This document shows, piece by piece, positions 10,244-31,713 of a DNA stretch of 64,000 nucleotides; position 1 is the first letter of the stretch, and each line of letters starts with the position of its first letter. The notes beneath the pieces were generated by a model that was not told the origin of the DNA, made no database searches, and saw only the letters and a program-made list of their open reading frames with translations. The stretch comes from Patescibacteria group bacterium. GTDB taxonomy: Bacteria; Patescibacteriota; Microgenomatia; UBA10105; UBA927. The DNA lies in the NCBI GenBank assembly GCA_035510735.1, contig DATKGN010000002.1, forward strand, positions 3,275-67,274. The letters are read 5' to 3'. The translations under genes were made by a program, and so were the position numbers.

Positions 10244-10280
10244 GTGTATGAGGCCTCCGACCGATGACTCCGCCGATCTT

Positions 10281-10306
10281 GTTATCATGTTCCGTTACAT
10301 GATAAC
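10281..10306 (+). promoter_or_regulatory. 26-bp palindrome GTTATCATGT-TCCGTT-ACATGATAAC (copy 1) overlapping the putative promoter of the TrpR-like regulator gene
   Basis: Perfect 10-bp inverted arms with a 6-bp spacer. The arms embed TTGTTA (-35-like) and GATAAC (-10-like) 17 bp apart. An extra half-site TATCATG at 10310-10317 overlaps the start codon. Confidence 0.55.
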
Positions 10307-10314
10307 GTAATATC

Positions 10315-10755
10315 ATGACACAAATATCAAGACGGCATCTCGATGCCAAAACGCAAAAACGTATATATGAAATATTTACCGACGTTATTGCGGATGTAAA
10401 AACGCCATCTGAAGTTCAGGCATTGCTCGAAGATTTTTTCACCCCAACCGAACGCGTGATGCTTCCTAAGCGCTTATGTATCGCCTTCTTATTACTAAAA
10501 GGCTACGATCACAGAACGATTGCATCATATTTGAAAGTAAGCTTCACCACAATCAATCGCGTTAGTACCTCATTAAAAGTCGGTGGAAAAGGATATACTC
10601 TTGTTCTTACCCGTTTACGCAAACGCAAACAATTTGAATCTGTACTTACACAAATTGAAAATGGAATCGTTTCGATGTTAGCTTCAATTGGCGGACCAAG
10701 CCGTTTATGGAAAACAGTTCAAAACACACAACATAACTCTAAGTATATAGACTGA
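10315..10755 (+). CDS. TrpR-like DNA-binding protein, YerC/YecD family
   Basis: FFTPTERVMLPKRLCIAFLLLKGYDHRTIASYLKVSFTTINRVSTSLKVGG matches the YerC/YecD (Trp-repressor-fold) helix-turn-helix pattern. The gene is flanked on both sides by the same palindrome. Confidence 0.6.
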   Translation: MTQISRRHLDAKTQKRIYEIFTDVIADVKTPSEVQALLEDFFTPTERVMLPKRLCIAFLLLKGYDHRTIASYLKVSFTTINRVSTSLKVGGKGYTLVLTRLRKRKQFESVLTQIENGIVSMLASIGGPSRLWKTVQNTQHNSKYID

Positions 10756-10770
10756 AGCCTCTTTCAATTT

Positions 10771-10796
10771 GCTATCATGTAACGGAACATGATAAC
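10771..10796 (+). promoter_or_regulatory. 26-bp palindrome GCTATCATGT-AACGGA-ACATGATAAC (copy 2, spacer reverse-complemented relative to copy 1)
   Basis: Lies 16 nt after the regulator stop and ~25 nt upstream of the thrS -35 box. Confidence 0.5.
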
Positions 10797-10820
10797 AACT
10801 AAATTCCATCATGAGTAGCA

Positions 10821-10849
10821 TTGACAAGAGCATCTATACCATTTAGACT
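10821..10849 (+). promoter_or_regulatory. thrS promoter candidate TTGACA-17-TAGACT
   Basis: TTGACA 10821-10826, 17-bp spacer, TAGACT 10844-10849. About 235 nt upstream of the thrS ATG, which implies a long leader. Confidence 0.5.
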
Positions 10850-10855
10850 ATGAAT

Positions 10856-11086
10856 ACTTCCCGTTTGCATGAGACGTAACGAACCTCAAAGAGAAGCGCG
10901 AGTCTCAGCGTAAAGAGAATAATTAAGTCACCATTGTTGGATGGAACCTCGAAGCGAAAGCTGAGATCCAACGAGAACGGGTGACTTTTTTGATGGACAG
11001 TTAACGATCCGTCAGTTTACGGAGAGTTTACTGCCATCAATCCTCCGAAGCCTTGGCGAAGGAGGATGTACAATAAGGAGGAATCT
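10856..11086 (+). promoter_or_regulatory. Structured thrS 5' leader; candidate T-box-like riboswitch/attenuator
   Basis: The ~230-nt untranslated leader holds a complex intrinsic terminator and a Stem-I-like hairpin TGAGAC...GTCTCA whose loop carries an ACC (Thr) triplet. The segment GGATGGAACCTCG resembles the T-box core AGGGTGGNACCGCG (10/13). An anti-SD hairpin ATCCTCC/GGAGGAT lies just before the SD AAGGAGG. Confidence 0.4.
10927..10991 (+). terminator. Intrinsic terminator/attenuator inside the thrS leader
   Basis: Outer stem GTCACC (10927-32)/GGTGAC (10980-85) and inner stem GTTGGAT (10936-42)/ATCCAAC (10966-72), followed by T6 (10986-91). Confidence 0.5.
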
Positions 11087-21381: not shown

Positions 21382-22146
21382 ATGAACATAAAAACAAAAT
21401 GCAAAAAACCAATAATTATCGCCGGTCCCTGTGCCGCCGAATCGAAAGCGCAAATCGCGTTGTCCCTGCGCGAGGCCAAAAAACGGGCTATCGACTTCGT
21501 GCGCATCAGCCTCTGGAAACCAAGGACCAAACCCGGATTTGAGGGCCTGGGATTTCGAGGAATTGACCTTCTCATTGAGGCCGCACGACTCGGCCTTTCC
21601 CCTGCCACTGAAGTCATTCTGCCTGAGCAGGCCCGCGCCGTCATGGATGCGGTATTAGGTGAAGTGCCGGAGACACGGCTCATGCTCTGGATTGGCGCGC
21701 GCAATCAAAATCACTACATCCAAAGGGAAATTGCGCGTGTTGCAGCGTCCGATAAGCGGGTCCTGCTGATGGTTAAAAACCAACCGTGGAGCAATGAGGA
21801 TCACTGGGAAGGCATTGTCGGACATGTATTAAGCGGTGGAATCGATAAGGCCCGCGTAATTCTCTGTCACCGTGGTTTTATACCCAACGGCGTTAATCCA
21901 TTCGGATACAAAAACGTGCCTGATTATGAGATGGCGATGAGAATAAAACATACATCAGGGTTACCAATGATATTTGACCCATCGCACACAGGCGGAACTG
22001 TTGATAAAGTTTTGCAAATTATGGACGAGGCCATGAAGCATGAGTTTGACGGGATTATCGTTGAGGTGCATCCCGATCCGACTCATGCGCTCACGGATGC
22101 GAAGCAACAATTGACATGGAAGGAATTTGATCAATTACGCGTATGA
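21382..22146 (+). CDS. aroG: 3-deoxy-7-phosphoheptulonate (DAHP) synthase, type I-beta (KDO8PS-like fold)
   Basis: IIAGPCAAES and the (beta/alpha)8 DAHPS/KDO8PS family signature, with no regulatory extension. First gene of the shikimate operon. Confidence 0.8.
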   Translation: MNIKTKCKKPIIIAGPCAAESKAQIALSLREAKKRAIDFVRISLWKPRTKPGFEGLGFRGIDLLIEAARLGLSPATEVILPEQARAVMDAVLGEVPETRLMLWIGARNQNHYIQREIARVAASDKRVLLMVKNQPWSNEDHWEGIVGHVLSGGIDKARVILCHRGFIPNGVNPFGYKNVPDYEMAMRIKHTSGLPMIFDPSHTGGTVDKVLQIMDEAMKHEFDGIIVEVHPDPTHALTDAKQQLTWKEFDQLRV

Positions 22147-23237
22147 ATACAATTATTTTGAACCAATCACAAAAAGAAAAAACTCAGGCGTGCCCGATTA
22201 TCATCGGGAATAATCTTGTGGGGAAAATTAATACGCTTTTTGACCTGTCCGTGTTTTCCCGGATAGTGGTTGTTACGGATACCAATACCGAGCGGCTCTT
22301 CCTTAAAACGCTTCTTTGTGCACTGCCAAAAAGTGCAGCGCGTGTCGTGTTACCCACGGGCGAGAAAGAAAAGAATTTCAAAAACGTTCAAAAAATATTG
22401 ATTGCGATGCACAAGGCATATTGTGATAGGGATACTCTCGTTATCAATCTTGGCGGCGGGGTCGTGAGCGATATCGGAGGATTTGCCGCAAGCATATTTA
22501 TGCGGGGCGTAAGTATACTCAACATTCCGACAACATTGCTTGCCCAGGCGGACGCAAGTATCGGAGGCAAAACCGGCATCAACTTTTTGGGAATTAAGAA
22601 TCTTGTTGGGACGTTTGCCCAACCGATAGGCGTCGTTATTGATGTGACAACGTTGCGGTCGCTTCCGGGGCGTGAATTGATCTCAGGGTTTGCCGAAATA
22701 ATTAAACACGGGCTCGTTGCTAATCGCACATTATTTCATTTAGCAACGTGCAAAACACCGCGGGATTTTACGAATAATAAACTCATCGCTATTATCACCA
22801 AATCATGCCGGGTAAAGGCCGACATCGTGAGTTGCGATCATACGGAACAACACGAGCGGAAACTCCTTAATTTCGGCCATACGATCGGACATGCCGTAGA
22901 AGCATTAAGCCAAACGTCCGTAAATCCCATTCTCCACGGAGAAGCGGTTGTCATCGGTATGATGGTCGAGGCAAAAATTTCAGAGCTCTCCGGTCTCCTG
23001 TCGCAAACCTCATGTTCTGTTATCGAAGAAGCTCTTACTTCACTTCCATTACCCAAATTACCGGAAGTAATACCGATTCAGAACATCATGGATGTGATCC
23101 GGTCGGATAAAAAAAGTAAAAACGGAATTATTCAGTGGACGCTCTTAACGGAAATCGGCAAAGGAATAATTAATCAGGTTGTCTGCGATAACACAGTTAT
23201 TGCAGCACTCAAACAAACGAAAGGAATAATCGTATGA
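22143..23237 (+). CDS. aroB: 3-dehydroquinate synthase
   Basis: NAD-binding GGGVVSDIGGFAAS motif and metal-binding NFGHTIGHAVE motif. Confidence 0.9.
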   Translation: MNTIILNQSQKEKTQACPIIIGNNLVGKINTLFDLSVFSRIVVVTDTNTERLFLKTLLCALPKSAARVVLPTGEKEKNFKNVQKILIAMHKAYCDRDTLVINLGGGVVSDIGGFAASIFMRGVSILNIPTTLLAQADASIGGKTGINFLGIKNLVGTFAQPIGVVIDVTTLRSLPGRELISGFAEIIKHGLVANRTLFHLATCKTPRDFTNNKLIAIITKSCRVKADIVSCDHTEQHERKLLNFGHTIGHAVEALSQTSVNPILHGEAVVIGMMVEAKISELSGLLSQTSCSVIEEALTSLPLPKLPEVIPIQNIMDVIRSDKKSKNGIIQWTLLTEIGKGIINQVVCDNTVIAALKQTKGIIV

Positions 23238-23668
23238 AAATATTAGTCGTCAATGGACCGAATTTGAATTTATTGGGTAAGCGCGATCACTCAAAGTACG
23301 GAACGATAACGCTTGGCCAACTCAATAACCAACTCAATCGTATAGCCAAAGAAACCGGCGTCAGTCTGACGTTTTTCCAATCGAATCACGAGGGAGCCAT
23401 TATTGATTTTCTCCAAAAAGATGCATCACGGGATGCGGACGGCGTCCTTATCAATCCGGGTGCTCTTGTGCGATACGGTTGGTCTTTGCGTCAAGCGCTC
23501 ATTGATCTTGGAAAACCGATTGTTGAAGTGCATATGTCTGACATTAATAGCACCGGCGTCAATAAAGCGGTTAACGTATTAGAAGGTATTCGCATAGATC
23601 AAATTGTCGGGTTAAAAGAGCAAAGTTACGAGTTGGGTCTTAAAAAATTATTACAAATAATTCTATGA
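23234..23668 (+). CDS. aroQ: 3-dehydroquinate dehydratase, type II
   Basis: MKILVVNGPNLNLLGKRD...INPGAL...HMSDI is the type II DHQase pattern. Confidence 0.9.
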   Translation: MKILVVNGPNLNLLGKRDHSKYGTITLGQLNNQLNRIAKETGVSLTFFQSNHEGAIIDFLQKDASRDADGVLINPGALVRYGWSLRQALIDLGKPIVEVHMSDINSTGVNKAVNVLEGIRIDQIVGLKEQSYELGLKKLLQIIL

Positions 23669-24972
23669 ACTTACACGTCCTACCGGCACAATCAATAAAA
23701 GGGGAAGTGGCAATGCCAAGAAGTAAAACCCACTCATTCAGGGCGCTCGTTCTTGCGGCCCTTGCAGATGGCACATCGACTATCCGAAAGCCCAAAATAA
23801 GTAATGATTGGAATATCGCAGTGGGTGGACTTCAACAGTTCGGCGCAACGATTAAAGAAACAGAGCCGAATGTCTTTCGTGTCACCGGCGTCGGGGGCAA
23901 TCTGCAAACCCCCAAGGAAGTTATTCATGTCGGAAACTCGGGGACGATGCTCTTCTTCCTCGCGGGTGTTGCAGCCGCTTGTCCGGGTATTTCTATCATC
24001 ACGGGGGATGAATCGATTAGATTACTGAGGATAATATCACGAAATCTATTTCAACCGTTTGAAGAACTCGGCGTGAGCATTACCTCGTCAAAGAATGACG
24101 GTATGGCCCCGCTCATCATCAAGGGGAACGTGAACGGTGGAGTCGCGCATATGGACGGCACCGGTTGCCAGCCCGTATTCAGCATTCTTATCGCGTCGGC
24201 CCTTTCATCAAAACCTGTTGAACTATTCGTTACAAGCCCGGGTGAAACGGCGTATATTGATTTACTTCTATTCTGGTTCAAAAAGGCAGGGATTGAGTGT
24301 CAAAACGTCGGGGGGACCCACTCGCATTATGTTTTTCCGGGAAACCAGCTGGCCAAAGCGTTCGATGAAACAATACCGCTCGAATGGTCAGCCTCCGCGT
24401 ATCCGCTTCTTGCGGCTCTTATTCTGCCGAATTCAAAAATGACGGTAAAGAATATGGACTTTGCCGATCCGTATGGAGATAAATTTGTTATCGATGTTCT
24501 GCGGCAAATGGGCGGAGACATTAGAGTGCATGATGGTAACCTGACTGCACAATCAAGCAGGCTTCATGGCATTGAAGTCGACATGAATCTGCTCCCTGAT
24601 CAAGTGCCCACGGTTGCGGTTGCCGCGTGTTTTGCGAAAGGAGCAACTGTTATCACAAATGCGCTAACAGCCCGATGGAAAGAGTGCGACCGTATTTCGG
24701 CTATTTGCAAGGAACTTAAAAAAATGGGAGCCGATATTCGCGAAAAGAGCGACGGACTCGTCATCCATGGCATCGAGGGAAAGAACATGCACGGCGCATC
24801 CATTGACGGTCATAAGGATCATCGTATGGTTTTGTCGTTAGCTGTCGCGGGAATGCAAGCCACTGGGGAAACAGTAATCACAGATGCCGAGATGGTCGAA
24901 AAATCATTTGAGACATTTATCCCGGACATGACACATGCAGGTGCTCTATTTGCACTGAAGGAGAGAACATGA
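23665..24972 (+). CDS. aroA: 3-phosphoshikimate 1-carboxyvinyltransferase (EPSP synthase)
   Basis: 435 aa with MPRSKTHSFRALVLAALADG...GNSGTMLFFLAG... and the EPSPS two-domain architecture. Confidence 0.9.
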   Translation: MNLHVLPAQSIKGEVAMPRSKTHSFRALVLAALADGTSTIRKPKISNDWNIAVGGLQQFGATIKETEPNVFRVTGVGGNLQTPKEVIHVGNSGTMLFFLAGVAAACPGISIITGDESIRLLRIISRNLFQPFEELGVSITSSKNDGMAPLIIKGNVNGGVAHMDGTGCQPVFSILIASALSSKPVELFVTSPGETAYIDLLLFWFKKAGIECQNVGGTHSHYVFPGNQLAKAFDETIPLEWSASAYPLLAALILPNSKMTVKNMDFADPYGDKFVIDVLRQMGGDIRVHDGNLTAQSSRLHGIEVDMNLLPDQVPTVAVAACFAKGATVITNALTARWKECDRISAICKELKKMGADIREKSDGLVIHGIEGKNMHGASIDGHKDHRMVLSLAVAGMQATGETVITDAEMVEKSFETFIPDMTHAGALFALKERT

Positions 24973-25496
24973 AAAATATAATTCTTATCGGCATGAAAGG
25001 ATGCGGCAAATCGACCGTAGGCCGAGTGTTATCAAAAAAACTCGGTATGCGTTTTGTGGAACTTGATGATGAAATATCAATGCTTTATGAAAAGAAAACG
25101 GGAAAACGACTGTCGTGCCGGAAAATATTTAGAAACATCGGCGAAGAAGACTTTCGTCAACTCGAAACGGACGCGCTAAATAATGTGAAACGTATACAAA
25201 ATATGGCTCTATCCTGCGGCGGCGGCACGCCGTTATCGGAAACAAATCAGGGAATGCTCCGATCTATGGGCACGGTCGTATTTCTTGATACCGACGAAGA
25301 CATTCTATTAAAACGAATAAAAACAGGCGGTATCCCTTCGTTTTTTAAAAAAAATGAAGACCATAAAACATCGCTCCATCAAGTGTTGGAAACGCGTTTT
25401 CCGGTGTACGAAAAAATTGCGGGCGTTCGTCTCGCACTTCGTGATGAATCACCCGAAGAAATAGCAACGCATATTTCTGAAAGGATTGGACTATGA
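24969..25496 (+). CDS. aroK: Shikimate kinase
   Basis: Walker A GMKGCGKSTVG, a small NMP-kinase fold and operon context. Confidence 0.85.
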   Translation: MKNIILIGMKGCGKSTVGRVLSKKLGMRFVELDDEISMLYEKKTGKRLSCRKIFRNIGEEDFRQLETDALNNVKRIQNMALSCGGGTPLSETNQGMLRSMGTVVFLDTDEDILLKRIKTGGIPSFFKKNEDHKTSLHQVLETRFPVYEKIAGVRLALRDESPEEIATHISERIGL

Positions 25497-26320
25497 ATAT
25501 AAACGGGGAAACAAAAATTATCGGTTTTTTGGGTGCAACGTTCAAAACAAGCAGAATATACGCGTTGTACAATGCCGCGTTTGCCGCATTACATCTCAAT
25601 TTTGTCTATATACCGCTTCCCTTTGGTGACGTTGAAAAGGCGGTAGAGGGAATACGAAACATGCGGATAGCTGCCGTAGGCGTAACCGTGCCGTTTAAAA
25701 TATCGATCCTGCCGTTTTTAGACGGTCTGGATAGACAAGCAAAACGAGTACGAGCCGTAAATGTCGTTATCAACGATAACGGAAAACTAATCGGCGGCAA
25801 CACCGACGGCGAAGGCGGCGTGCTTGCGCTCAAAGAAAAAACGGCTCTAGGTGGTAAAGGCGTTTTGTTGTTAGGTGCAGGCGGAGCAGCGCGGGCGATT
25901 GCTTTTTCGCTCATTGATAATGGCGCAGACGTGACGATTGTTAATAGAACAGTTGCTGCAGCCGGGGAGTTGGCCACCTCAGCAGGTTGCCGTTTCGATC
26001 AACTTACATCGTTATCAAGACATATAAAAAATGCAGACATTCTCATTAATGCAACAACTGTGGGTATGGGGCCGAATACGGATAAATCGTTAGTTCCTAA
26101 AGCATTACTCCGTCCTGATCTAACCGTATTGGATGTCGTAAGTAATCCCAAAGAAACACAGCTTGTTAGCGATGCACGAAGCGCGGGTTGCACGGTAGTC
26201 AGTGCCGACAGGATGCTTCTCTGGCAGGCGGCATTGAAGTTCAAACTATTTACAGGAGTTGAAGCGCCTATTTCTGTTATGGAAACGGCACTCAAGGAAA
26301 CGGAGGCTTATGGCAGGTAA
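25493..26320 (+). CDS. aroE: Shikimate 5-dehydrogenase
   Basis: NADP-binding LLLGAGGAARAIAF, N-terminal substrate domain and operon context. Confidence 0.85.
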   Translation: MNINGETKIIGFLGATFKTSRIYALYNAAFAALHLNFVYIPLPFGDVEKAVEGIRNMRIAAVGVTVPFKISILPFLDGLDRQAKRVRAVNVVINDNGKLIGGNTDGEGGVLALKEKTALGGKGVLLLGAGGAARAIAFSLIDNGADVTIVNRTVAAAGELATSAGCRFDQLTSLSRHIKNADILINATTVGMGPNTDKSLVPKALLRPDLTVLDVVSNPKETQLVSDARSAGCTVVSADRMLLWQAALKFKLFTGVEAPISVMETALKETEAYGR

Positions 26321-27395
26321 TACGTTTGGTCAATTATTTCGTATCACAACCTTCGGCGAATCCCATGGAGGGGCCGTCGGCGTGGTCGTTGACGGATGTC
26401 CGCCGGGTTTGGAGCTTTCAACCGAAGACGTACAAAAAGAACTGGACCGGAGAAAACCCGGACAAAGCGCCATTACATCACCACGAAAAGAACAGGACGA
26501 AATCCATATTATGTCGGGAGTTCACGACGGCAAAACAACGGGGACGCCGATTATGCTCATGGCATTGAATACCGATGCAAAACCCGAGGATTATCTCACA
26601 CTGAAAGATCTCTATCGGCCGGGTCACGCGGATTTTACATTTGAAAAAAAATTCGGTATCCGTGATTGGAGAGGTTCCGGCCGGGCATCAGCAAGAGAAA
26701 CGCTTGGAAGAGTAGCGGCAGGGGCCATAGCAAAGAAATTCCTTAAGGAAAAATTACATATCGAAATCTTCAGTTTCGTCGAACAGGTTGGTAATATAAA
26801 GACGGGCGTTGATTTTAACACTGTCAGTTTAGCCGAAATAGAATCGAACATCGTCCGTTGTCCAGACCCGAAAGTGGCCAAAAGGATGATTGCACTTATC
26901 GAAAAAGTTAGAGACGAGGGTGATTCCGTCGGTGGTGTTATCCGCGGCGTTATAAAGAACGTACCCGTGGGCTTAGGCGAACCGGTGTTTGATAAGTTAT
27001 CTGCCGATTTAGGAAAAGCAATGCTCTCAATTAACGCCGTCAAAGGTTTTGATATCGGATCGGGATTTGACGGAGTCACGATGCAGGGGAGCAGACATAA
27101 TGACGAATTCGTTACCAATAAGAACGGCACGATACGTACAAAAACAAACAATGCAGGCGGAACATTGGGCGGTATTTCCAACGGCGAGACAATCTATTTC
27201 CGTGTCGGGATGAAACCTGTCTCAACGATACGCAAAAAGCAACGAACGGTAAATGCCCAAGGCAAACCCGTTGACCTTGAGGCGACCGGTCGTCATGATC
27301 CGTGTGTGTTGCCGCGGGCGGTTCCGATCGTAGACGCGATGGCAGCGCTTGTCGTTATGGATCATTATTTACGGCACAAAGCGCAAAACGGATAA
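26310..27395 (+). CDS. aroC: Chorismate synthase
   Basis: Starts MAGNTFGQLFRITTFGESHG, the canonical AroC N-terminus, preceded by SD AAGGAAACGGAGG. The ORF-track start 26259 is an extension overlapping aroE. Confidence 0.9.
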   Translation: MAGNTFGQLFRITTFGESHGGAVGVVVDGCPPGLELSTEDVQKELDRRKPGQSAITSPRKEQDEIHIMSGVHDGKTTGTPIMLMALNTDAKPEDYLTLKDLYRPGHADFTFEKKFGIRDWRGSGRASARETLGRVAAGAIAKKFLKEKLHIEIFSFVEQVGNIKTGVDFNTVSLAEIESNIVRCPDPKVAKRMIALIEKVRDEGDSVGGVIRGVIKNVPVGLGEPVFDKLSADLGKAMLSINAVKGFDIGSGFDGVTMQGSRHNDEFVTNKNGTIRTKTNNAGGTLGGISNGETIYFRVGMKPVSTIRKKQRTVNAQGKPVDLEATGRHDPCVLPRAVPIVDAMAALVVMDHYLRHKAQNG

Positions 27396-27399
27396 TCAT

Positions 27400-27675
27400 A
27401 TGCAAAACGCATCCCTTAACCATTGGCGAGACCAAATCGATAAGCTTGATAATGAGCTTCTGTCTCTATTGGCAAAACGGATGGAGATCGTACAAAAAAT
27501 CGGAAGAATAAAACAATCATCGCATGCCTCCATCCTCGATAAAAAACGCTGGCAACAAGTACTTGAGGGAATCGACGCAAAAGCGAAAAAACTTAAACTT
27601 CCCAAAAAATTCGTTCATGAATTATTTACCCGTATTCACCAGCAAGCTTTGGAGACAGAAAGGAAAGACCTATGA
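27400..27675 (+). CDS. Chorismate mutase (AroQ class, monofunctional)
   Basis: ~91 aa helical protein (DKLDNELLSLLAKRMEIVQKIGRIK) in the aro operon. Start chosen at the ATG just after the aroC stop. Confidence 0.65.
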   Translation: MQNASLNHWRDQIDKLDNELLSLLAKRMEIVQKIGRIKQSSHASILDKKRWQQVLEGIDAKAKKLKLPKKFVHELFTRIHQQALETERKDL

Positions 27676-28823
27676 AAGCGTTTCAACTCTCCAATCGTCT
27701 TAACCAATTTCCGGAATATATTTTTTCTGCACTCAATAAACAAGTTGTTGAGGTAGAAAAAAAATCGGGCCGCAAGGTACTTAATTTAGGCATCGGGTCA
27801 CCCGATTTCCCCCCGAGCCGGATGTACCTCAATAAACTCAAAGAATATATTGATGAGAAGGGGAGTCATTTATATCCGGGCAATGGTGCAATCCCTGAGT
27901 TAGAAGAAGGACTGCAACATTGGTACAACTCGCGGTTTAACGTGACGCTCGCACAAAATGAGCTCTACCCATTATTGGGCAGCAGGGACGGCGTTGCCCA
28001 CTTACCACTGGCCCTCTGCAATAGGGGAGACGAGATAGTGGTTCCCGATCCTGGGTACCCTGCATTTACCGGTCCCGCTCTCATGATCGGCGTTAAACCA
28101 ATATATTACAATCTCGTGGCCGCAAACAATTTCAAAATTAACCTTAAGGAATTGGAAAGGAAAATCACACGAAAAACAAAATACATGTGGGTTAACTTTC
28201 CTTCAAACCCGACGGGGCAGGTTGCCACCATTGAAGAATTGCGAACTCTTGTCGCGTTCGCAAAAAATCACAATATCTGGCTTCTCTACGATAATGCGTA
28301 TGCAGAAATTACGTTTGACGGTTTTGTCGCACCGAGCATTCTTCAAATCGAGGGCGCGAAAGACATCGCGGTCGAAATCGGATCATTTTCCAAAACATTT
28401 TCATTTGCCGGTTTTCGCATGGGCTGGATTGTTGGAAATAGTGAGATTATTGCTGCCTTAGCAAAAATTAAATCTCAGATGGATTCAGGATTGTCTCTAC
28501 CGTTTCAAAAACTGGGCGGATTCGCGCTCACGCATCCGGATCGCGCTTGGCATGCTGAAATGATTGCAGCGTACCAACTCCGACGGGATATCATTATCAA
28601 GGCCCTGAAAACTATTGGTCTTGACGCCAATAAAACTAAGGGAAGCCTGTATCTTTGGGTTAACATACCGGATCGGTTTTCTGACTCGAAACACTACGCA
28701 CAAACGGTGTTGAGAGAAAAACAAATACTCCTGACTTCCGGAACGGCATTCGGAAAAAACGGAACAAGATATGTTCGTGTGAGTGTTTGCGCTAATATAG
28801 ATTCAATTGCCGAATATTTATAA
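27672..28823 (+). CDS. Class I PLP-dependent aminotransferase (probably aromatic/prephenate aminotransferase)
   Basis: NPTGQV motif, PLP-lysine region SFSKTFSFAGFRMGW and operon context. Confidence 0.8.
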   Translation: MKAFQLSNRLNQFPEYIFSALNKQVVEVEKKSGRKVLNLGIGSPDFPPSRMYLNKLKEYIDEKGSHLYPGNGAIPELEEGLQHWYNSRFNVTLAQNELYPLLGSRDGVAHLPLALCNRGDEIVVPDPGYPAFTGPALMIGVKPIYYNLVAANNFKINLKELERKITRKTKYMWVNFPSNPTGQVATIEELRTLVAFAKNHNIWLLYDNAYAEITFDGFVAPSILQIEGAKDIAVEIGSFSKTFSFAGFRMGWIVGNSEIIAALAKIKSQMDSGLSLPFQKLGGFALTHPDRAWHAEMIAAYQLRRDIIIKALKTIGLDANKTKGSLYLWVNIPDRFSDSKHYAQTVLREKQILLTSGTAFGKNGTRYVRVSVCANIDSIAEYL

Positions 28824-28841
28824 TACGATACACACCTTGTC

Positions 28842-28867
28842 ATCCTCGGGCCGAAGGACCCGAGGAT
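28842..28867 (+). other. Perfect hairpin ATCCTCGGG-ccgaagga-CCCGAGGAT, no U-tract
   Basis: 9-bp perfect stem located 19 nt after the aminotransferase stop. Confidence 0.45.
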
Positions 28868-28888
28868 CAAGGCTAAATGAAAAAATGG

Positions 28889-28908
28889 ATTCCCGCCTTC
28901 GCGGGAAT
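28889..28908 (+). other. Perfect hairpin ATTCCCGC-cttc-GCGGGAAT, no U-tract
   Basis: 8-bp perfect stem, 18 nt upstream of the tyrA-pheA fusion gene. Confidence 0.45.
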
Positions 28909-28925
28909 GACAAATACAAAATTAT

Positions 28926-30257
28926 ATGAAAAAAATAAGTATTGTCGGTTTCGGAAGATTCGGAAAAGTCTTATATCGTTTAGTAAAGGACGATTTCGTT
29001 GTCACGGTCTATACCAGAAAACCAATTAATTCAGGAACGGAAATATCACCTAATACAGTATTAACCAATTCCATACAAGATATTTACAAAAGCGATGTCA
29101 TATTTTTCGCTGTTCCGATTGATGCATTTGAAAGCGTCATAAAAGCGCATAAAAAATACTTTATACCGGGACACCTTCTTATTGATGTGTTGTCGGTAAA
29201 GCTGCATCCGCGAAGCGTATTTGAGAAACACCTCAAAGGCAGTAAAACACAGGTTCTGTTAACGCACCCTATGTTCGGGCCTGACAGCAGCCGTAATGGC
29301 TTTGATGGCTTACCCATTATCATGGACCGGTTCAAAGCGGATGAAACGAACTATGTTTTCTGGAAGAATTACTTCACCAATAAACATCTGCATGTTATTG
29401 AGATGTCAGCGCGGGATCATGACAGGCTTGCGGCAAATTCCCAGGGGTTGACGCATTTCGTCGGGCGCTTATTGGATTCCTATGGCCTACGACCGACTCA
29501 AATTGACTCATTAGGTACAAAAAAATTATTGGAAGTCATTGACCAAACGTGTAATGACTCGTGGCAGTTATTTACGAATTTGCAGCATTTTAATCCCTAC
29601 ACCAAACGGATGCGGATGGAACTTGGCGATACGTATGACCGGCTATACAATAAATTATTGCCGAAGCAGCATAATCCGCATTACATAACGTTCGGCATCC
29701 AGGGCGGAAAAGGAAGCTTTAATGAACAGGCGATACACGATTACGTAGAAAAAGAAGAGATTAAGCACTATAGAATCAAATATCTATACACGACAGCCGC
29801 GGTGATGCGTGCGCTCCACACTGGAGAAATCGATTTCGGACAATTCGCTATCCATAATTCGGTGGGTGGGATTGTGGGTGAATCGATTAACGCGATGGCG
29901 GACTACAGATTTACAATCGTAAAAGAGTTCGCTATCAAAATTTCGCATGCACTTATGATCCGGAAGGACGCCACATTAGAGGACGCGACGACAATTATGA
30001 CCCATCCGCAGGTTCTCGCGCAGTGCAAAGCAACGCTTGCCCGAAAGTATCCGCAATTGGCGCAAACGTCAGGGACGGGAATCCTATTGGATCATGCTGT
30101 GGTTGCAAGGCAATTGGGTTGCGGTAAACTACCGAAAGAAATTGCGACCATGGGGAGCAGAATCCTCGCTACGCTTTATGGTTTGAAAATTGTCGAGGTC
30201 AATCTGGAGGACGCCAAGGAAAACTTTACGATCTTTCTCATTGTCACACGCACATAA
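28926..30257 (+). CDS. Fusion protein: prephenate dehydrogenase (TyrA, N-terminal) - prephenate dehydratase (PheA, C-terminal)
   Basis: The N-terminus MKKISIVGFGRFGKV is a Rossmann NAD-binding fold typical of TyrA. From ~residue 255, ITFGIQGGKGSFNEQA...TRFLIV-like begins a PDT domain. Confidence 0.7.
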   Translation: MKKISIVGFGRFGKVLYRLVKDDFVVTVYTRKPINSGTEISPNTVLTNSIQDIYKSDVIFFAVPIDAFESVIKAHKKYFIPGHLLIDVLSVKLHPRSVFEKHLKGSKTQVLLTHPMFGPDSSRNGFDGLPIIMDRFKADETNYVFWKNYFTNKHLHVIEMSARDHDRLAANSQGLTHFVGRLLDSYGLRPTQIDSLGTKKLLEVIDQTCNDSWQLFTNLQHFNPYTKRMRMELGDTYDRLYNKLLPKQHNPHYITFGIQGGKGSFNEQAIHDYVEKEEIKHYRIKYLYTTAAVMRALHTGEIDFGQFAIHNSVGGIVGESINAMADYRFTIVKEFAIKISHALMIRKDATLEDATTIMTHPQVLAQCKATLARKYPQLAQTSGTGILLDHAVVARQLGCGKLPKEIATMGSRILATLYGLKIVEVNLEDAKENFTIFLIVTRT

Positions 30258-30269
30258 TCCAACCATTTT

Positions 30270-30295
30270 GTTATCATGTACCGTTACATGATAGC
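30270..30295 (+). promoter_or_regulatory. 26-bp palindrome GTTATCATGT-ACCGTT-ACATGATAGC (copy 3) upstream of tyrS
   Basis: Same arms as copies 1 and 2; sits 63 nt upstream of the tyrS ATG, overlapping a -35/-10-like pair. Confidence 0.5.
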
Positions 30296-30357
30296 AAAGA
30301 TAAAAAAAGGAAATTACTGAGAAAATGCGAAAAACATGATATAGTAAAGAAGCTCAT

Positions 30358-31572
30358 ATGGATCAAATAGAACAATTATTAACCCGCGGGGTGGACAGTA
30401 TTTATCCCTCCAAAGAGGCACTTGAAAAAGTGCTTCGGTCAGGGAAAAAATTAACGCTGTATCAGGGTTTTGATCCAACGGGAACACAGCTCCATATCGG
30501 ACACGCAGTCGGATTCCGGAAACTCCGTCAGTGGCAGGATCTTGGACACCATGTGATTTTCCTTATCGGAGACGGCACGGGGCTTGCCGGCGATCCGTCG
30601 GGAAAAATGAAAGCCCGCGGCCGCTTCATGAGCCGGCAGGAACTCAGAGATAACGCGGTCTCCTATCTTAAGCAGGCCTCTAAAATCGTACGTTTTGAGG
30701 GGGAAAATCCTATTGAAATCCGATATAACGGCGACTGGCTAACGAAATTAAAATTAGAAGATATCCTTAACATCGCTCAAAATTTCACGGTGCAGCAGAT
30801 GATCGAACGGGATATGTATCAAACCCGAATAAAAGCAGGCGATCCGATAAATTTGCGTGAATTTTTATACCCAATTTTGCAGGGATATGATTCCGTAGTT
30901 ATGAAAGTAGATCTAGAACAGGGTGGAACTGATCAGACCTTTAATATGCTCGCAGGCCGAACGTTAGTAAAAGCGATGCTCGGAAAGGAAAAATTTGTGA
31001 TGACCGTGCCGCTTCTTGCCGATTCCAAGGGTGTGAAAATTGGAAAGACAGAAGGAAACGTCATTGGCTTGACCGACGCGCCGAACGATTTATACGCAAA
31101 AATCATGTCTTTAAGCGATGACGCGATCGTCCCGTGCTTTAAATTTCTGACCGATTTGCCAATGGAAGAAATTGAATCAATGAAACAAGAAATGAAGAAC
31201 GGAATAAACCCAATGAATTTCAAAAAGAAGCTCGCATTTGAACTTACAAAATATCTACATGCCGAAAAGGAAGCACAAGAAGCTCAGGAGCAATTCGTAC
31301 AAACTTTTCAGAAAAAAGATTTATCAAAAGTCCACATCGAGGAAACTCCGATTGCCGTAGTCCCTAACGCTAATAATGTTAACATTGTTGACTTAGTGTC
31401 TCTCGGCGATTTAAGATTAGCGTCAAGTAGATCAGAGGCTAAACGCCAAATAATTGGGGGCGCAGTAGAAATTAATGGTAAAAAAATCTTAGATACAAAT
31501 GCTATAATAAAACTTAATCCTGGAGATATTATTAAGGTTGGCAAGGTAAGATTCAAGAAATTTATTAAATAG
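30358..31572 (+). CDS. tyrS: Tyrosyl-tRNA synthetase
   Basis: HIGH motif (HIGHAVG), KMSKS-like KIGKTEG and a C-terminal S4-like domain. Confidence 0.9.
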   Translation: MDQIEQLLTRGVDSIYPSKEALEKVLRSGKKLTLYQGFDPTGTQLHIGHAVGFRKLRQWQDLGHHVIFLIGDGTGLAGDPSGKMKARGRFMSRQELRDNAVSYLKQASKIVRFEGENPIEIRYNGDWLTKLKLEDILNIAQNFTVQQMIERDMYQTRIKAGDPINLREFLYPILQGYDSVVMKVDLEQGGTDQTFNMLAGRTLVKAMLGKEKFVMTVPLLADSKGVKIGKTEGNVIGLTDAPNDLYAKIMSLSDDAIVPCFKFLTDLPMEEIESMKQEMKNGINPMNFKKKLAFELTKYLHAEKEAQEAQEQFVQTFQKKDLSKVHIEETPIAVVPNANNVNIVDLVSLGDLRLASSRSEAKRQIIGGAVEINGKKILDTNAIIKLNPGDIIKVGKVRFKKFIK

Positions 31573-31573
31573 T

Positions 31574-31678
31574 ATGAACTTTTTTAGGAAACATGAAAAA
31601 TTCTGGAAAATAATTGTCGTTATCGCGTCGGTTGCATTAATAGCAAGTTCTTTCCTACCACTTCTTTCACTTCGGTAA
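31574..31678 (+). CDS. Possible 34-aa single-TM micro-protein MNFFRKHEKFWKIIVVIASVALIASSFLPLLSLR
   Basis: ATG 1 nt after the tyrS stop codon, with one hydrophobic helix. Too short for the ORF track and may be spurious. Confidence 0.25.
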   Translation: MNFFRKHEKFWKIIVVIASVALIASSFLPLLSLR

Positions 31679-31713
31679 GCTCAGCGTAAACCCCTCGATA
31701 ATTTCGGGCGTAC

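What the first reader, a model, noticed from the sequence alone, without database searches (positions are those of the whole stretch)
30258..30357. Third copy of the TrpR-like operator palindrome in the tyrS upstream region, next to the aromatic operon
GTTATCATGT-ACCGTT-ACATGATAGC at 30270-30295 lies between the TyrA-PheA fusion gene and tyrS, overlapping -35/-10-like elements. This ties the YerC/YecD-like regulator at 10315 to tyrosyl-tRNA synthetase and to the aromatic amino acid pathway, as TrpR/TyrR do in enterobacteria. No terminator or T-box-like leader is evident for tyrS, so this palindrome may be its main control element.
Basis: partly seen in the sequence, partly recalled or inferred. 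Interest (0 to 1): 0.55.

Follow-up and report, generated by a model that had tools for sequence, protein, structure and literature searches.

The report
Regulator binding site upstream of tyrS
The 30-base palindrome in front of the tyrosyl-tRNA synthetase gene is a real third copy of the DNA site recognised by a small Trp-repressor-like protein encoded 20 kb away, but this regulator, found across the ultra-small Patescibacteria, appears to control a mixed set of housekeeping genes, not aromatic amino acid synthesis.

Summary
TATCATGT-N6-ACATGATA occurs exactly three times in the window (10283, 10773, 30272); 0.01 are expected by chance. The third copy lies 12 nt after the TyrA-PheA stop and 62-64 nt before the tyrS ATG. 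No T-box or terminator is present.

The link to the TrpR-family gene at 10315 is well supported. In 40 Patescibacteria loci a palindrome sits directly before the homologous gene. Its sequence changes between clades together with the protein's recognition helix.

The aromatic (TrpR/TyrR-like) reading is not supported:
- No site precedes the aro operon.
- The same site sits 58-59 nt before tyrS in two relatives that lack aro genes.
- It is absent from eight other tyrS loci.
- In metagenomes the motif precedes dcd, tdk, folA, folD, DNA ligase, alaS, thrS, tsaD, uppS and others.

The protein is nearer HisR/YerC than TrpR and scores below both curated cut-offs.

At tyrS the site lies upstream of a conserved proximal TGnTATAGT promoter (centre about -70). 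The sign of control is therefore unknown.

Across the phylum the regulator gene is bracketed by two operator copies. This correlates with a C-terminal extension of the protein.

Verdict: a new subfamily, motif and regulon of a known kind. Interest is moderate.

The parts
30266..30299 (.). Third copy of the palindrome (TTTTGTTATCATGTACCGTTACATGATAGCAAAG). The core is 30270-30295 and the arms are 30268-30279 and 30286-30297. The centre is asymmetric, CCGTT in the direction of tyrS. It is the predicted binding site of the TrpR/HisR-family regulator.
   Evidence: 55.8 bits, the best of the three sites. It lies 12 nt after the TyrA-PheA stop and 62 nt before the tyrS ATG.
30337..30345 (+). Extended -10-like element TGATATAGT, 12 nt before the tyrS ATG. 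It is probably the core tyrS promoter, giving a very short leader. It overlaps a chance-looking extra half-site ACATGATA at 30334-30341.
   Evidence: Promoter scan. The TGnTATAGT/TATTAT element is conserved 12-17 nt before the ATG in L058 and L122-L129, whether or not the palindrome is present; L130 shows no clear match. Half-site list.
30358..31572 (+). tyrS (tyrosine-tRNA ligase), the gene downstream of the site.
   Evidence: Pfam tRNA-synt_1b, 232 bits; TIGR00234, 341 bits.
28926..30257 (+). Prephenate dehydrogenase / prephenate dehydratase fusion, the last gene of the aro operon (21382-30257). Its stop codon is 12 nt before the site.
   Evidence: PDH_N plus PDT domains. Operon genes identified.
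10277..10310 (.). First copy of the palindrome. It ends 8-10 nt before the ATG of the regulator gene. Its 3' half supplies an extended -10-like TGaTAACGT that ends 6 nt before the ATG. From this I infer an autoregulated promoter giving a leaderless mRNA.
   Evidence: The spacing is constant in 9 homologous loci.
10315..10755 (+). TrpR/HisR-family helix-turn-helix regulator, 146 aa, with a helical C-terminal extension of about 45 residues.
   Evidence: PF01371, 56.8 bits. Below the cut-offs of TIGR02531 and TIGR01321. Nearest solved structures are 3FRW, 3KOR and 3G1C. Structure model.
10767..10800 (.). Second copy of the palindrome, 15-17 nt after the regulator's stop codon and about 270 nt before thrS. 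Together with copy 1 it brackets the regulator gene.
   Evidence: The bracket is conserved across Patescibacteria.

Best explanation
The palindrome at 30268-30297 is a binding site (operator) for the dimeric TrpR/HisR-family protein encoded at 10315-10755.

**At the regulator's own gene (strongly inferred).** The site overlaps an embedded extended -10 promoter that starts a leaderless mRNA. Binding there should shut off the regulator's own synthesis.

**At tyrS (inferred).** The site lies just upstream of the core promoter. That promoter is TGaTATAGT at 30337-30345, with a transcription start near 30352. The site centre is therefore near -70 and its 3' edge near -55. The bound protein would modulate tyrS transcription from an upstream position. 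It could also block RNA polymerase reading through from the aro operon, which ends 12 nt before the site. By analogy with TrpR and HisR, repression with a small-molecule co-repressor is the default. The geometry would equally suit activation.

**Scope.** The regulator is not aromatic-specific. In related Gottesmanbacteria-like genomes the same motif precedes genes for dNTP and folate metabolism, DNA repair, several aminoacyl-tRNA synthetases, tRNA modification and envelope synthesis. The tyrS site is one lineage-variable member of a broad housekeeping regulon.

**Shown versus inferred.** Shown: the existence, significance and conservation of the sites; the co-variation with the protein; the gene contexts. 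Inferred: binding, the sign of regulation, the effector, and the transcription starts.
For: 1. There are three copies against 0.01 expected by chance.
2. In 40 of 45 loci encoding homologues across Patescibacteria, a palindrome lies 1-37 nt before the start codon. The exceptions are truncated, N-masked or ambiguous.
3. The palindrome class changes together with the second helix of the helix-turn-helix motif:
   - VSFTTINRVS goes with TATCATGT..CG..ACATGATA.
   - VSPSTVxRF goes with CGATATATCG.
   - VTRITVSR goes with ATGTATCATAAG..TATGATACAT.
   - VSTSTVARVN goes with CTATGAATT..AATTCATAG.
4. The protein is a TrpR-family member (PF01371, 56.8 bits against a cut-off of 27). Its nearest solved relatives are HisR/YerC-type proteins (E 3e-10 to 4e-8; Foldseek top hits). 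Members of this family bind roughly 20-bp palindromes and autoregulate (PMC9413887).
5. The same site lies 58 nt (L058) and 59 nt (L129) before tyrS in other genomes, in the same CCGTT orientation and without any aro genes. This compares with 64 nt in the window.
6. A scan of metagenome contigs found 76 loci. About 62 non-redundant sites of this class are mostly intergenic and face gene starts at 8-67 nt. Orthologous GT4 genes of two species both carry the site at 20-22 nt.
7. The targets were identified by Pfam: DCD, TK, DHFR, FolD, PRT, ATP-dependent DNA ligase, AlkZ-like, AlaRS, ThrRS, TsaD, MiaB-like, UppS, GT4, DedA and PfkB.
8. No T-box, riboswitch or terminator competes as a tyrS control element.
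Against: - No binding or expression data exist; everything rests on comparative inference.
- Eight of eleven orthologous tyrS loci (L122-L128, L130) lack the palindrome. One of them, L124, comes from the same assembly as L004, which encodes the regulator with this motif. Control of tyrS is therefore not a conserved feature.
- At tyrS the site does not overlap the conserved proximal promoter. Simple occlusion is therefore unlikely, and the spacing to the -10 element (38, 41 and 46 nt) is not helically phased.
- In L058 and L129 the site lies in a divergent intergenic region, so the other gene could be the target.
- The centre of the motif is asymmetric (CCGTT) in 62 of 62 sites. A simple symmetric homodimer model does not explain this.
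- Some sites sit between convergent genes or right after stop codons. This hints at a role that is not purely promoter control.
Confidence: 0.65

Rival explanations
1. First reader's model. The regulator is a TrpR/TyrR-like sensor of aromatic amino acids. Through this palindrome it couples tyrS, and by extension the neighbouring aro operon, to aromatic amino acid supply.
For: - The regulator belongs to Pfam Trp_repressor.
- The site lies between the last aro gene and tyrS.
- In several relatives aro genes (DAHP synthase, prephenate dehydrogenase) sit directly upstream of tyrS, so tyrS and aro genes are genomically linked in this lineage.
Against: - No site lies upstream of the aro operon or anywhere else in it.
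- The tyrS site occurs in L058 and L129 without aro genes.
- Loci that do have aro genes next to tyrS (L125, L127) lack the site.
- Most targets in relatives are unrelated to aromatic metabolism.
- The protein scores 28.3 against a cut-off of 67.25 for the TrpR equivalog, and it is nearer to HisR-type proteins.
- TyrR is a different protein family.
Confidence: 0.08
2. The site works mainly at the 3' end of the upstream transcription unit. The bound protein acts as a roadblock or insulator that stops RNA polymerase leaving the aro operon from entering tyrS. The copy behind the regulator gene would insulate that gene in the same way.
For: - The site starts 12 nt after the TyrA-PheA stop.
- Across loci, sites lie 1-24 nt after the stop of a co-directional upstream gene, closer than to the downstream start.
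- The second copy follows the regulator's stop codon at -24 to +61 nt in all clades, even where the next gene is convergent (L003, L013, L028, L041, L044, L045).
- No intrinsic terminator follows the aro operon.
Against: - Short distances to the upstream stop are expected anyway in compact genomes.
- Many sites face gene starts at 8-22 nt, where promoter occlusion is the simpler reading.
- In L058 and L129 the site is in a divergent region with no upstream co-directional gene.
- This model is compatible with the main explanation and does not exclude it.
Confidence: 0.15
3. The palindrome acts as RNA. It would form a hairpin at the 3' end of the aro mRNA, or in a long tyrS leader, that terminates transcription or stabilises the transcript.
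For: The transcribed palindrome would fold into a 15-bp hairpin: -15.8 kcal/mol, z = -5.4 against shuffles.
Against: - The hairpin is followed by an A-rich tract, not a U-rich one, and is preceded by U's. This holds on both strands, so it is not an intrinsic terminator in either direction.
- Any perfect DNA palindrome folds well as RNA.
- The copy before the regulator's ATG lies upstream of the inferred transcription start.
- RNA function does not explain the co-variation with the protein's recognition helix.
Confidence: 0.05
4. The palindromes are REP-like dispersed repeats maintained or spread by their cognate binding protein. This would be analogous to REP elements and the RAYT genes they flank. 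They would not be a selected regulon.
For: - The protein gene is flanked on both sides by its clade-specific palindrome.
- The palindrome is also scattered in intergenic regions.
- The sequence is extremely uniform, including an asymmetric centre conserved in 62 of 62 sites.
Against: - The protein has only helices and a TrpR-type DNA-binding fold, with no nuclease or transposase domain.
- Copy density is low: one site outside the regulator locus in 64 kb.
- Gene order around the regulator is stable in Gottesmanbacteria-like genomes.
- Orthologous genes keep the site at the same distance in different species: GT4 at 20-22 nt and tyrS at 58-64 nt.
- No similarity extends beyond about 34 bp.
Confidence: 0.07

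Closest known systems
HisR (YerC) histidine repressor of Firmicutes, TrpR family (PMC9413887; structures 3G1C, 3FRW, 3KOR)
   Same: It is the nearest relative by sequence and fold (E 3e-10 to 4e-8; Foldseek top hits). It is a small helical helix-turn-helix protein. It binds palindromic operators with lineage-specific consensus sequences. A site frequently lies before its own gene, which implies autoregulation.
   Different: - HisR is under 110 aa; this protein is 146-150 aa with a conserved C-terminal helical extension.
- It scores below the TIGR02531 cut-off (37.7 against 42.2).
- The HisR motif is cacTTTA-N6-TAAAgtg (20 bp); here the motif is TTGYTATCATGT-WCCGTT-ACATGATARCAA (30 bp).
- HisR controls his biosynthesis and uptake genes; here the targets are diverse housekeeping genes, and the regulator gene is bracketed by two sites.
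E. coli TrpR and its operators (trpO, aroH, trpR, mtr, aroL)
   Same: It belongs to the same Pfam family (PF01371). It is autoregulated through an operator overlapping its own promoter. It binds a palindromic operator. Both motifs contain TGTA..TACA elements.
   Different: - It is only distantly related (E about 0.02; 28.3 bits against a cut-off of 67.25 for TIGR01321).
- The operator sequence and spacing differ: the TrpR motif is TGTACTnGTnnACnAGTACA (quoted).
- There is no site at the aro operon.
- The effector is unknown.
T-box leader control of tyrS, as in Firmicutes
   Same: The regulated gene (tyrS) is the same, and both couple synthetase expression to a signal.
   Different: No T-box or any other Rfam family matches upstream of tyrS, in the window or in relatives. 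The leader is at most a few nucleotides long if the conserved proximal promoter is used.
Two-operator looping repressors (LacI O1-O2, GalR OE-OI, lambda CI OL-OR)
   Same: Two identical operators about 420-490 bp apart flank or span the controlled gene. This is the arrangement seen around the regulator gene here and in about 36 other Patescibacteria loci.
   Different: Looping is only an inference here. Nothing is known about the oligomeric state. The resemblance concerns copies 1 and 2, not the tyrS copy.

Membership tests
Trp_repressor superfamily (Pfam PF01371) | Sequence match to the family profile above the curated gathering score | tested here: met
   56.8 bits against a cut-off of 27, covering residues 20-101. 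All 66 homologues carry a PF01371 annotation.
TrpR proper (NCBIfam TIGR01321 equivalog) | Score above the equivalog cut-off | tested here: not met
   28.3 bits against a cut-off of 67.25. E about 0.02 to E. coli TrpR chains.
TrpR proper | Operators in front of trp/aro biosynthesis genes, i.e. an aromatic regulon | tested here: not met
   No site lies before the DAHP synthase gene at 21382 or anywhere else in the aro operon. Targets in relatives are mostly non-aromatic.
TrpR proper | Tryptophan as co-repressor | not testable with these tools
   This needs binding assays. Ligand-contact residues were not analysed in detail.
YerC/YecD = HisR (NCBIfam TIGR02531) | Score above the family cut-off | tested here: not met
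   37.7 bits against a cut-off of 42.2. It is nevertheless the nearest family by sequence and fold.
YerC/YecD = HisR | 20-bp operator cacTTTA-N6-TAAAgtg before his genes and transporters | tested here: not met
   The motif here is TTGYTATCATGT-WCCGTT-ACATGATARCAA. No his biosynthesis genes were among the targets. hisS lies about 300 nt from a site in two contigs. The HisR motif is taken from PMC9413887.
Autoregulated helix-turn-helix repressor with cognate palindromic operator (general kind) | A palindrome at the regulator's own promoter that co-varies with the recognition helix | tested here: met
Autoregulated helix-turn-helix repressor with cognate palindromic operator (general kind) | Direct protein-DNA binding and a repressive effect | not testable with these tools
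   This needs EMSA or footprinting, plus a reporter or in vitro transcription assay.
T-box riboswitch (Rfam RF00230) upstream of tyrS | Covariance-model match in the leader | tested here: not met
   No match at gathering score in the window, nor at E<=10 in 30150-30450. No match at E<=1 in L058 or L129.
TyrR regulon | TyrR-type regulator (ACT/PAS, AAA+ and helix-turn-helix domains) and TyrR boxes | tested here: not met
   The regulator is a 146-aa single-domain TrpR-family protein. No TyrR-type protein was looked for beyond the genes annotated.

The most novel reading that the evidence does not exclude
Patescibacteria carry a phylum-wide, undescribed branch of the TrpR/HisR family that acts as a general housekeeping regulator in these reduced genomes. 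Its apparent targets include dNTP and folate enzymes, DNA repair, several aminoacyl-tRNA synthetases, tRNA modification and envelope genes. Its gene forms a self-contained cassette bracketed by two copies of a clade-specific operator: one over a leaderless promoter and one right after the stop codon. The C-terminal extension, present only where the second operator is present, would mediate pairing of the two bound dimers (a DNA loop) or a roadblock. The tyrS site would be one output of this global switch.
Probability: 0.35. Interest if true: 0.75.

Novelty: new variant of a known kind. Interest (0 to 1): 0.55.

Why it matters
Almost nothing is known about transcriptional control in Patescibacteria (the candidate phyla radiation). 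They have very few regulators and cannot be grown alone.

This finding gives a concrete, testable regulator-operator pair:
- The motif is sharply defined.
- The code linking recognition helix to site sequence is clear across clades.
- The two-operator bracket around the regulator gene is unusual.
- The target list points to growth-related functions: thymidylate and folate metabolism, DNA repair, and synthetases.

It also shows that tyrS in this lineage is controlled, if at all, by a protein site and a near-leaderless promoter. The T-box RNA typical of other Gram-positive-type bacteria is absent. The aromatic-pathway link suggested by the family name is misleading.

No paper on this branch was found in the searchable library.

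Tried and rejected
- **T-box or other known RNA element for tyrS.** Rfam gave nothing at gathering threshold or at E<=10, and no terminator was found. Rejected.
- **Chance palindrome.** Rejected.
- **Additional degenerate sites in the window, for example before the aro operon or pheST.** None above background.
- **Universal conservation of the site before tyrS.** I fetched nine orthologous tyrS loci. Only L129, plus L058 from the motif scan, carries the site. L064 has it 1.6 kb upstream, with a racemase gene in between.
- **The extra half-site ACATGATA at 30334 as a second operator element.** It overlaps the TGnTATAGT promoter element. The ATGATA part occurs in relatives irrespective of the palindrome, so it is probably promoter sequence.
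- **Helical phasing of the operator relative to the tyrS -10.** Spacings of 38, 41 and 46 nt show no clear phasing.
- **Orientation of the asymmetric centre relative to the target gene.** There is only a weak bias, about 18 to 7 by my count.
- **Intrinsic terminator reading of the palindrome.** There is no U tract on either strand.
- **Structure prediction.** Confidence was only moderate (pLDDT 69). It was enough to recover TrpR/HisR-type folds but not to interpret the C-terminal extension or a ligand pocket.
- **Literature search for this regulator in the candidate phyla radiation.** Nothing found.
- **Other palindrome classes returned by the metagenome scan** (TGTATCATGTATCGATACATGATACA; GGTATCATGTAACGTTACATGATACC). 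They belong to other organisms and were set aside.

Full report
**1. Observation**

The stated sequence is at the stated place. With its conserved flanks it reads TTGTTATCATGT-ACCGTT-ACATGATAGCAA (30268-30297). It starts 12 nt after the stop of the prephenate dehydrogenase/dehydratase fusion gene (28926-30257) and ends 62-64 nt before the ATG of tyrS (30358-31572).

The pattern occurs exactly three times in the 64-kb window: 10283, 10773 and 30272. Shuffles give 0.01 on average. A weight matrix built from 62 related sites finds nothing else in the window.

Rfam finds no T-box or other family in the window or around tyrS, and no terminator-like site is present. One point needs correction. The only promoter-like match (CTGAGA-17-TGaTATAGT, 30317-30345) lies downstream of the palindrome and does not overlap it.

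**2. Organism and genes**

The window is from a Patescibacteria (Gottesmanbacteria-like) genome of 46% G+C. The local gene order is:
- methyltransferase, hypothetical gene, TrpR-family gene (10315)
- thrS, infC, pheS, pheT, coaBC
- PBP1 on the minus strand
- an aro operon: DAHP synthase, aroB, aroQ, aroA, aroK, aroE, aroC, an aminotransferase and the TyrA-PheA fusion
- tyrS, recG

**3. Whose site is it?**

The 146-aa protein matches Pfam Trp_repressor (56.8 bits). It falls below the curated cut-offs of both TrpR (28.3 against 67.25) and YerC/YecD (37.7 against 42.2). Its nearest solved relatives are HisR/YerC-type proteins (3FRW, 3KOR, 3G1C; E 3e-10 to 4e-8). E. coli TrpR is distant (E about 0.02). 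A moderate-confidence model (pLDDT 69) recovers the same folds and shows a helical C-terminal extension.

HisR is a histidine-dependent repressor that binds lineage-specific 20-bp palindromes and is often autoregulated (PMC9413887).

A scan of one genome per species gave 45 loci with homologues across Microgenomates, Parcubacteria, Saccharibacteria and WWE3. In nearly all of them a palindrome lies 1-37 nt before the start codon. Its sequence differs between clades. The palindrome class tracks the sequence of the recognition helix. This co-variation, together with the autoregulatory position, is strong evidence that the palindrome is the protein's cognate site.

In the Gottesmanbacteria-type loci the spacing between the site and the ATG is fixed. 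The 3' half-site reads TGaTA(G/A)C(A/G)T, an extended -10-like element ending 6 nt before the ATG. From this I infer a leaderless, self-repressed promoter.

**4. The bracket around the regulator gene**

The second window copy (10773) is not primarily a thrS element. In about 36 of 39 loci that encode the long form of the protein, a second copy of the clade's own palindrome lies -24 to +61 nt from the stop codon. This holds whatever the next gene is, including convergent genes (L003, L013, L028, L041, L044, L045). The three loci with short proteins (104-108 aa: L018, L020, L023) lack it.

By my own hypergeometric estimate from these counts, that split has a chance probability of about 0.002. 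The arrangement suggests that the two bound dimers pair up through the C-terminal extension, or that the downstream site acts as a roadblock. Neither could be tested here.

**5. The tyrS copy in relatives**

The ancestral gene order is pheS-pheT-PBP1(minus)-tyrS-recG-nusB-rnc. The content of the PBP1-tyrS gap varies between relatives:
- nothing (L123, L126) or only a small hypothetical ORF (L122)
- DAHP synthase alone (L127)
- DAHP synthase, an unknown gene and prephenate dehydrogenase (L125)
- a methyltransferase plus Meth_synt_2 (L124, L128)
- the full aro operon (the window)

The palindrome is present before tyrS in three loci: the window (64 nt from the 22-mer to the ATG), L058 (58 nt, with PBP1 divergent) and L129 (59 nt, with a divergent hypothetical gene). 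All three are in the same CCGTT orientation. It is absent in L122-L128 and L130. L124 comes from the same assembly as L004, which encodes the regulator with this motif.

L058 and L122-L129 keep a proximal TGnTATAGT/TATTAT element 12-17 nt before the ATG; L130 shows no clear match. The site is therefore a recurrent but lineage-variable addition upstream of a conserved, near-leaderless tyrS promoter. In the window its centre is near -70 relative to the inferred start. Whether it represses, activates, or blocks read-through from the aro operon cannot be decided from sequence.

**6. The regulon is not aromatic**

A scan of metagenome contigs for TATCATGTNNCGNNACATGATA returned 76 loci. About 62 non-redundant sites share the extended consensus TTGYTATCATGT-WCCGTT-ACATGATARCAA. 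Most are intergenic and face gene starts at 8-67 nt.

The genes, identified by Pfam, fall into these groups:
- the regulator itself
- dNTP and folate metabolism: dCTP deaminase, thymidine kinase, dihydrofolate reductase, FolD, a phosphoribosyltransferase
- DNA repair: an ATP-dependent DNA ligase, an AlkZ-like glycosylase
- translation: AlaRS, ThrRS, TyrRS, TsaD, a MiaB-like enzyme, ribosomal protein S2 (223 nt away), HisRS (about 300 nt away)
- envelope and other: UppS, a GT4 glycosyltransferase (in two species at 20-22 nt), DedA, PfkB

No aromatic biosynthesis gene is among them, and the window's aro operon has no site at its 5' end. The TrpR/TyrR analogy is therefore rejected, while the regulator-site link is kept.

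**7. Rivals**

- An RNA hairpin role is unlikely. The fold is -15.8 kcal/mol, but there is no U tract on either strand, and this does not explain the protein co-variation.
- A REP-like selfish repeat is suggested by the bracket and by the strictly conserved asymmetric centre (62 of 62 sites). Against it are the low copy density, stable gene order, conserved positions before orthologous genes, and the lack of any catalytic domain.
- A roadblock or insulator role is compatible with the main model and remains open.

**8. Verdict**

The site is real and is very probably a binding site for a new, extended branch of the TrpR/HisR family. It is a new variant of a known kind. The specific claim of aromatic-pathway control is not supported. 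Control of tyrS is plausible but lineage-specific and of unknown sign. The wider pattern is a phylum-wide bracketed regulator cassette with a housekeeping regulon. It is the more interesting lead.

Noticed in passing
window 10277-10800; loci L001-L045: The regulator gene is bracketed by two copies of a clade-specific palindrome: one just before the ATG and one -24 to +61 nt from the stop. This holds in about 36 of 39 loci with the long (130 aa or more) protein, whatever the downstream gene. The three loci with short 104-108 aa proteins lack the second copy. In L005 the second copy is split by a 17-bp insertion.
   Followed up: yes
window 10821-11065 (thrS leader); also L049, L004, L118: A sigma-70-like promoter (TTGACA-17-TAGACT) is followed by a conserved, strongly structured leader (z = -5.6). 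The leader has a long hairpin plus a U run, an anti-Shine-Dalgarno pairing, and a T-box-like stretch GGAUGGAACCUC. No Rfam family matches it, T-box included. It may be a divergent T-box or a new thrS attenuator.
   Followed up: partly
window 21382-30257; L122-L128, L013: The aro genes occupy a variable gap between PBP1 and tyrS. Relatives have nothing there, DAHP synthase alone, DAHP synthase plus prephenate dehydrogenase, or unrelated methyltransferase genes. The TyrA-PheA fusion, for which no ACT domain was reported, has a 62% identical homologue in a Daviesbacteria genome whose regulator is only 37% identical. This suggests transfer or differential loss of the operon.
   Followed up: partly
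window 30337-30357; L063, L094, L072, L101, L110: Many genes in these genomes have a TGnTAnnnT or TAnnnT element only 6-13 nt before the ATG and no Shine-Dalgarno sequence (alaS, PfkB, folD, AlkZ-like, tyrS, the regulator). This points to frequent leaderless or near-leaderless mRNAs, although thrS has a strong Shine-Dalgarno sequence.
   Followed up: partly
62 sites in L001-L121 and the window: The centre of the palindrome is always asymmetric (CCGTT/AACGG). It is never the symmetric AACGTT or CCGG that the filter would also have accepted. Its orientation is only weakly biased relative to the downstream gene (about 18 to 7). A symmetric homodimer model does not explain this.
   Followed up: partly
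L058 328-356: A second inverted repeat, ACATACTC-N12-GAGTATGT, lies between the operator and the tyrS -10 element in this relative. It is absent from the window.
   Followed up: no
L067, L069, L077, L079, L096, L104, L111, L112; L046, L078, L082, L102, L103: The metagenome scan also returned two other perfect-palindrome classes from different, partly G+C-rich organisms. TGTATCATGTATCGATACATGATACA lies 7-10 nt before a 174-178 aa gene of unknown family. GGTATCATGTAACGTTACATGATACC is the second class. They may be other regulator-operator pairs that share the ATCATGT half-site.
   Followed up: no
L122 7205-7315, L123 7199-7309, L125 4202-4309, L126 4199-4309: A 35-36 codon ORF is called immediately after tyrS in several relatives. 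The corresponding 140-nt tyrS-recG gap of the window (31573-31713) was not examined.
   Followed up: no
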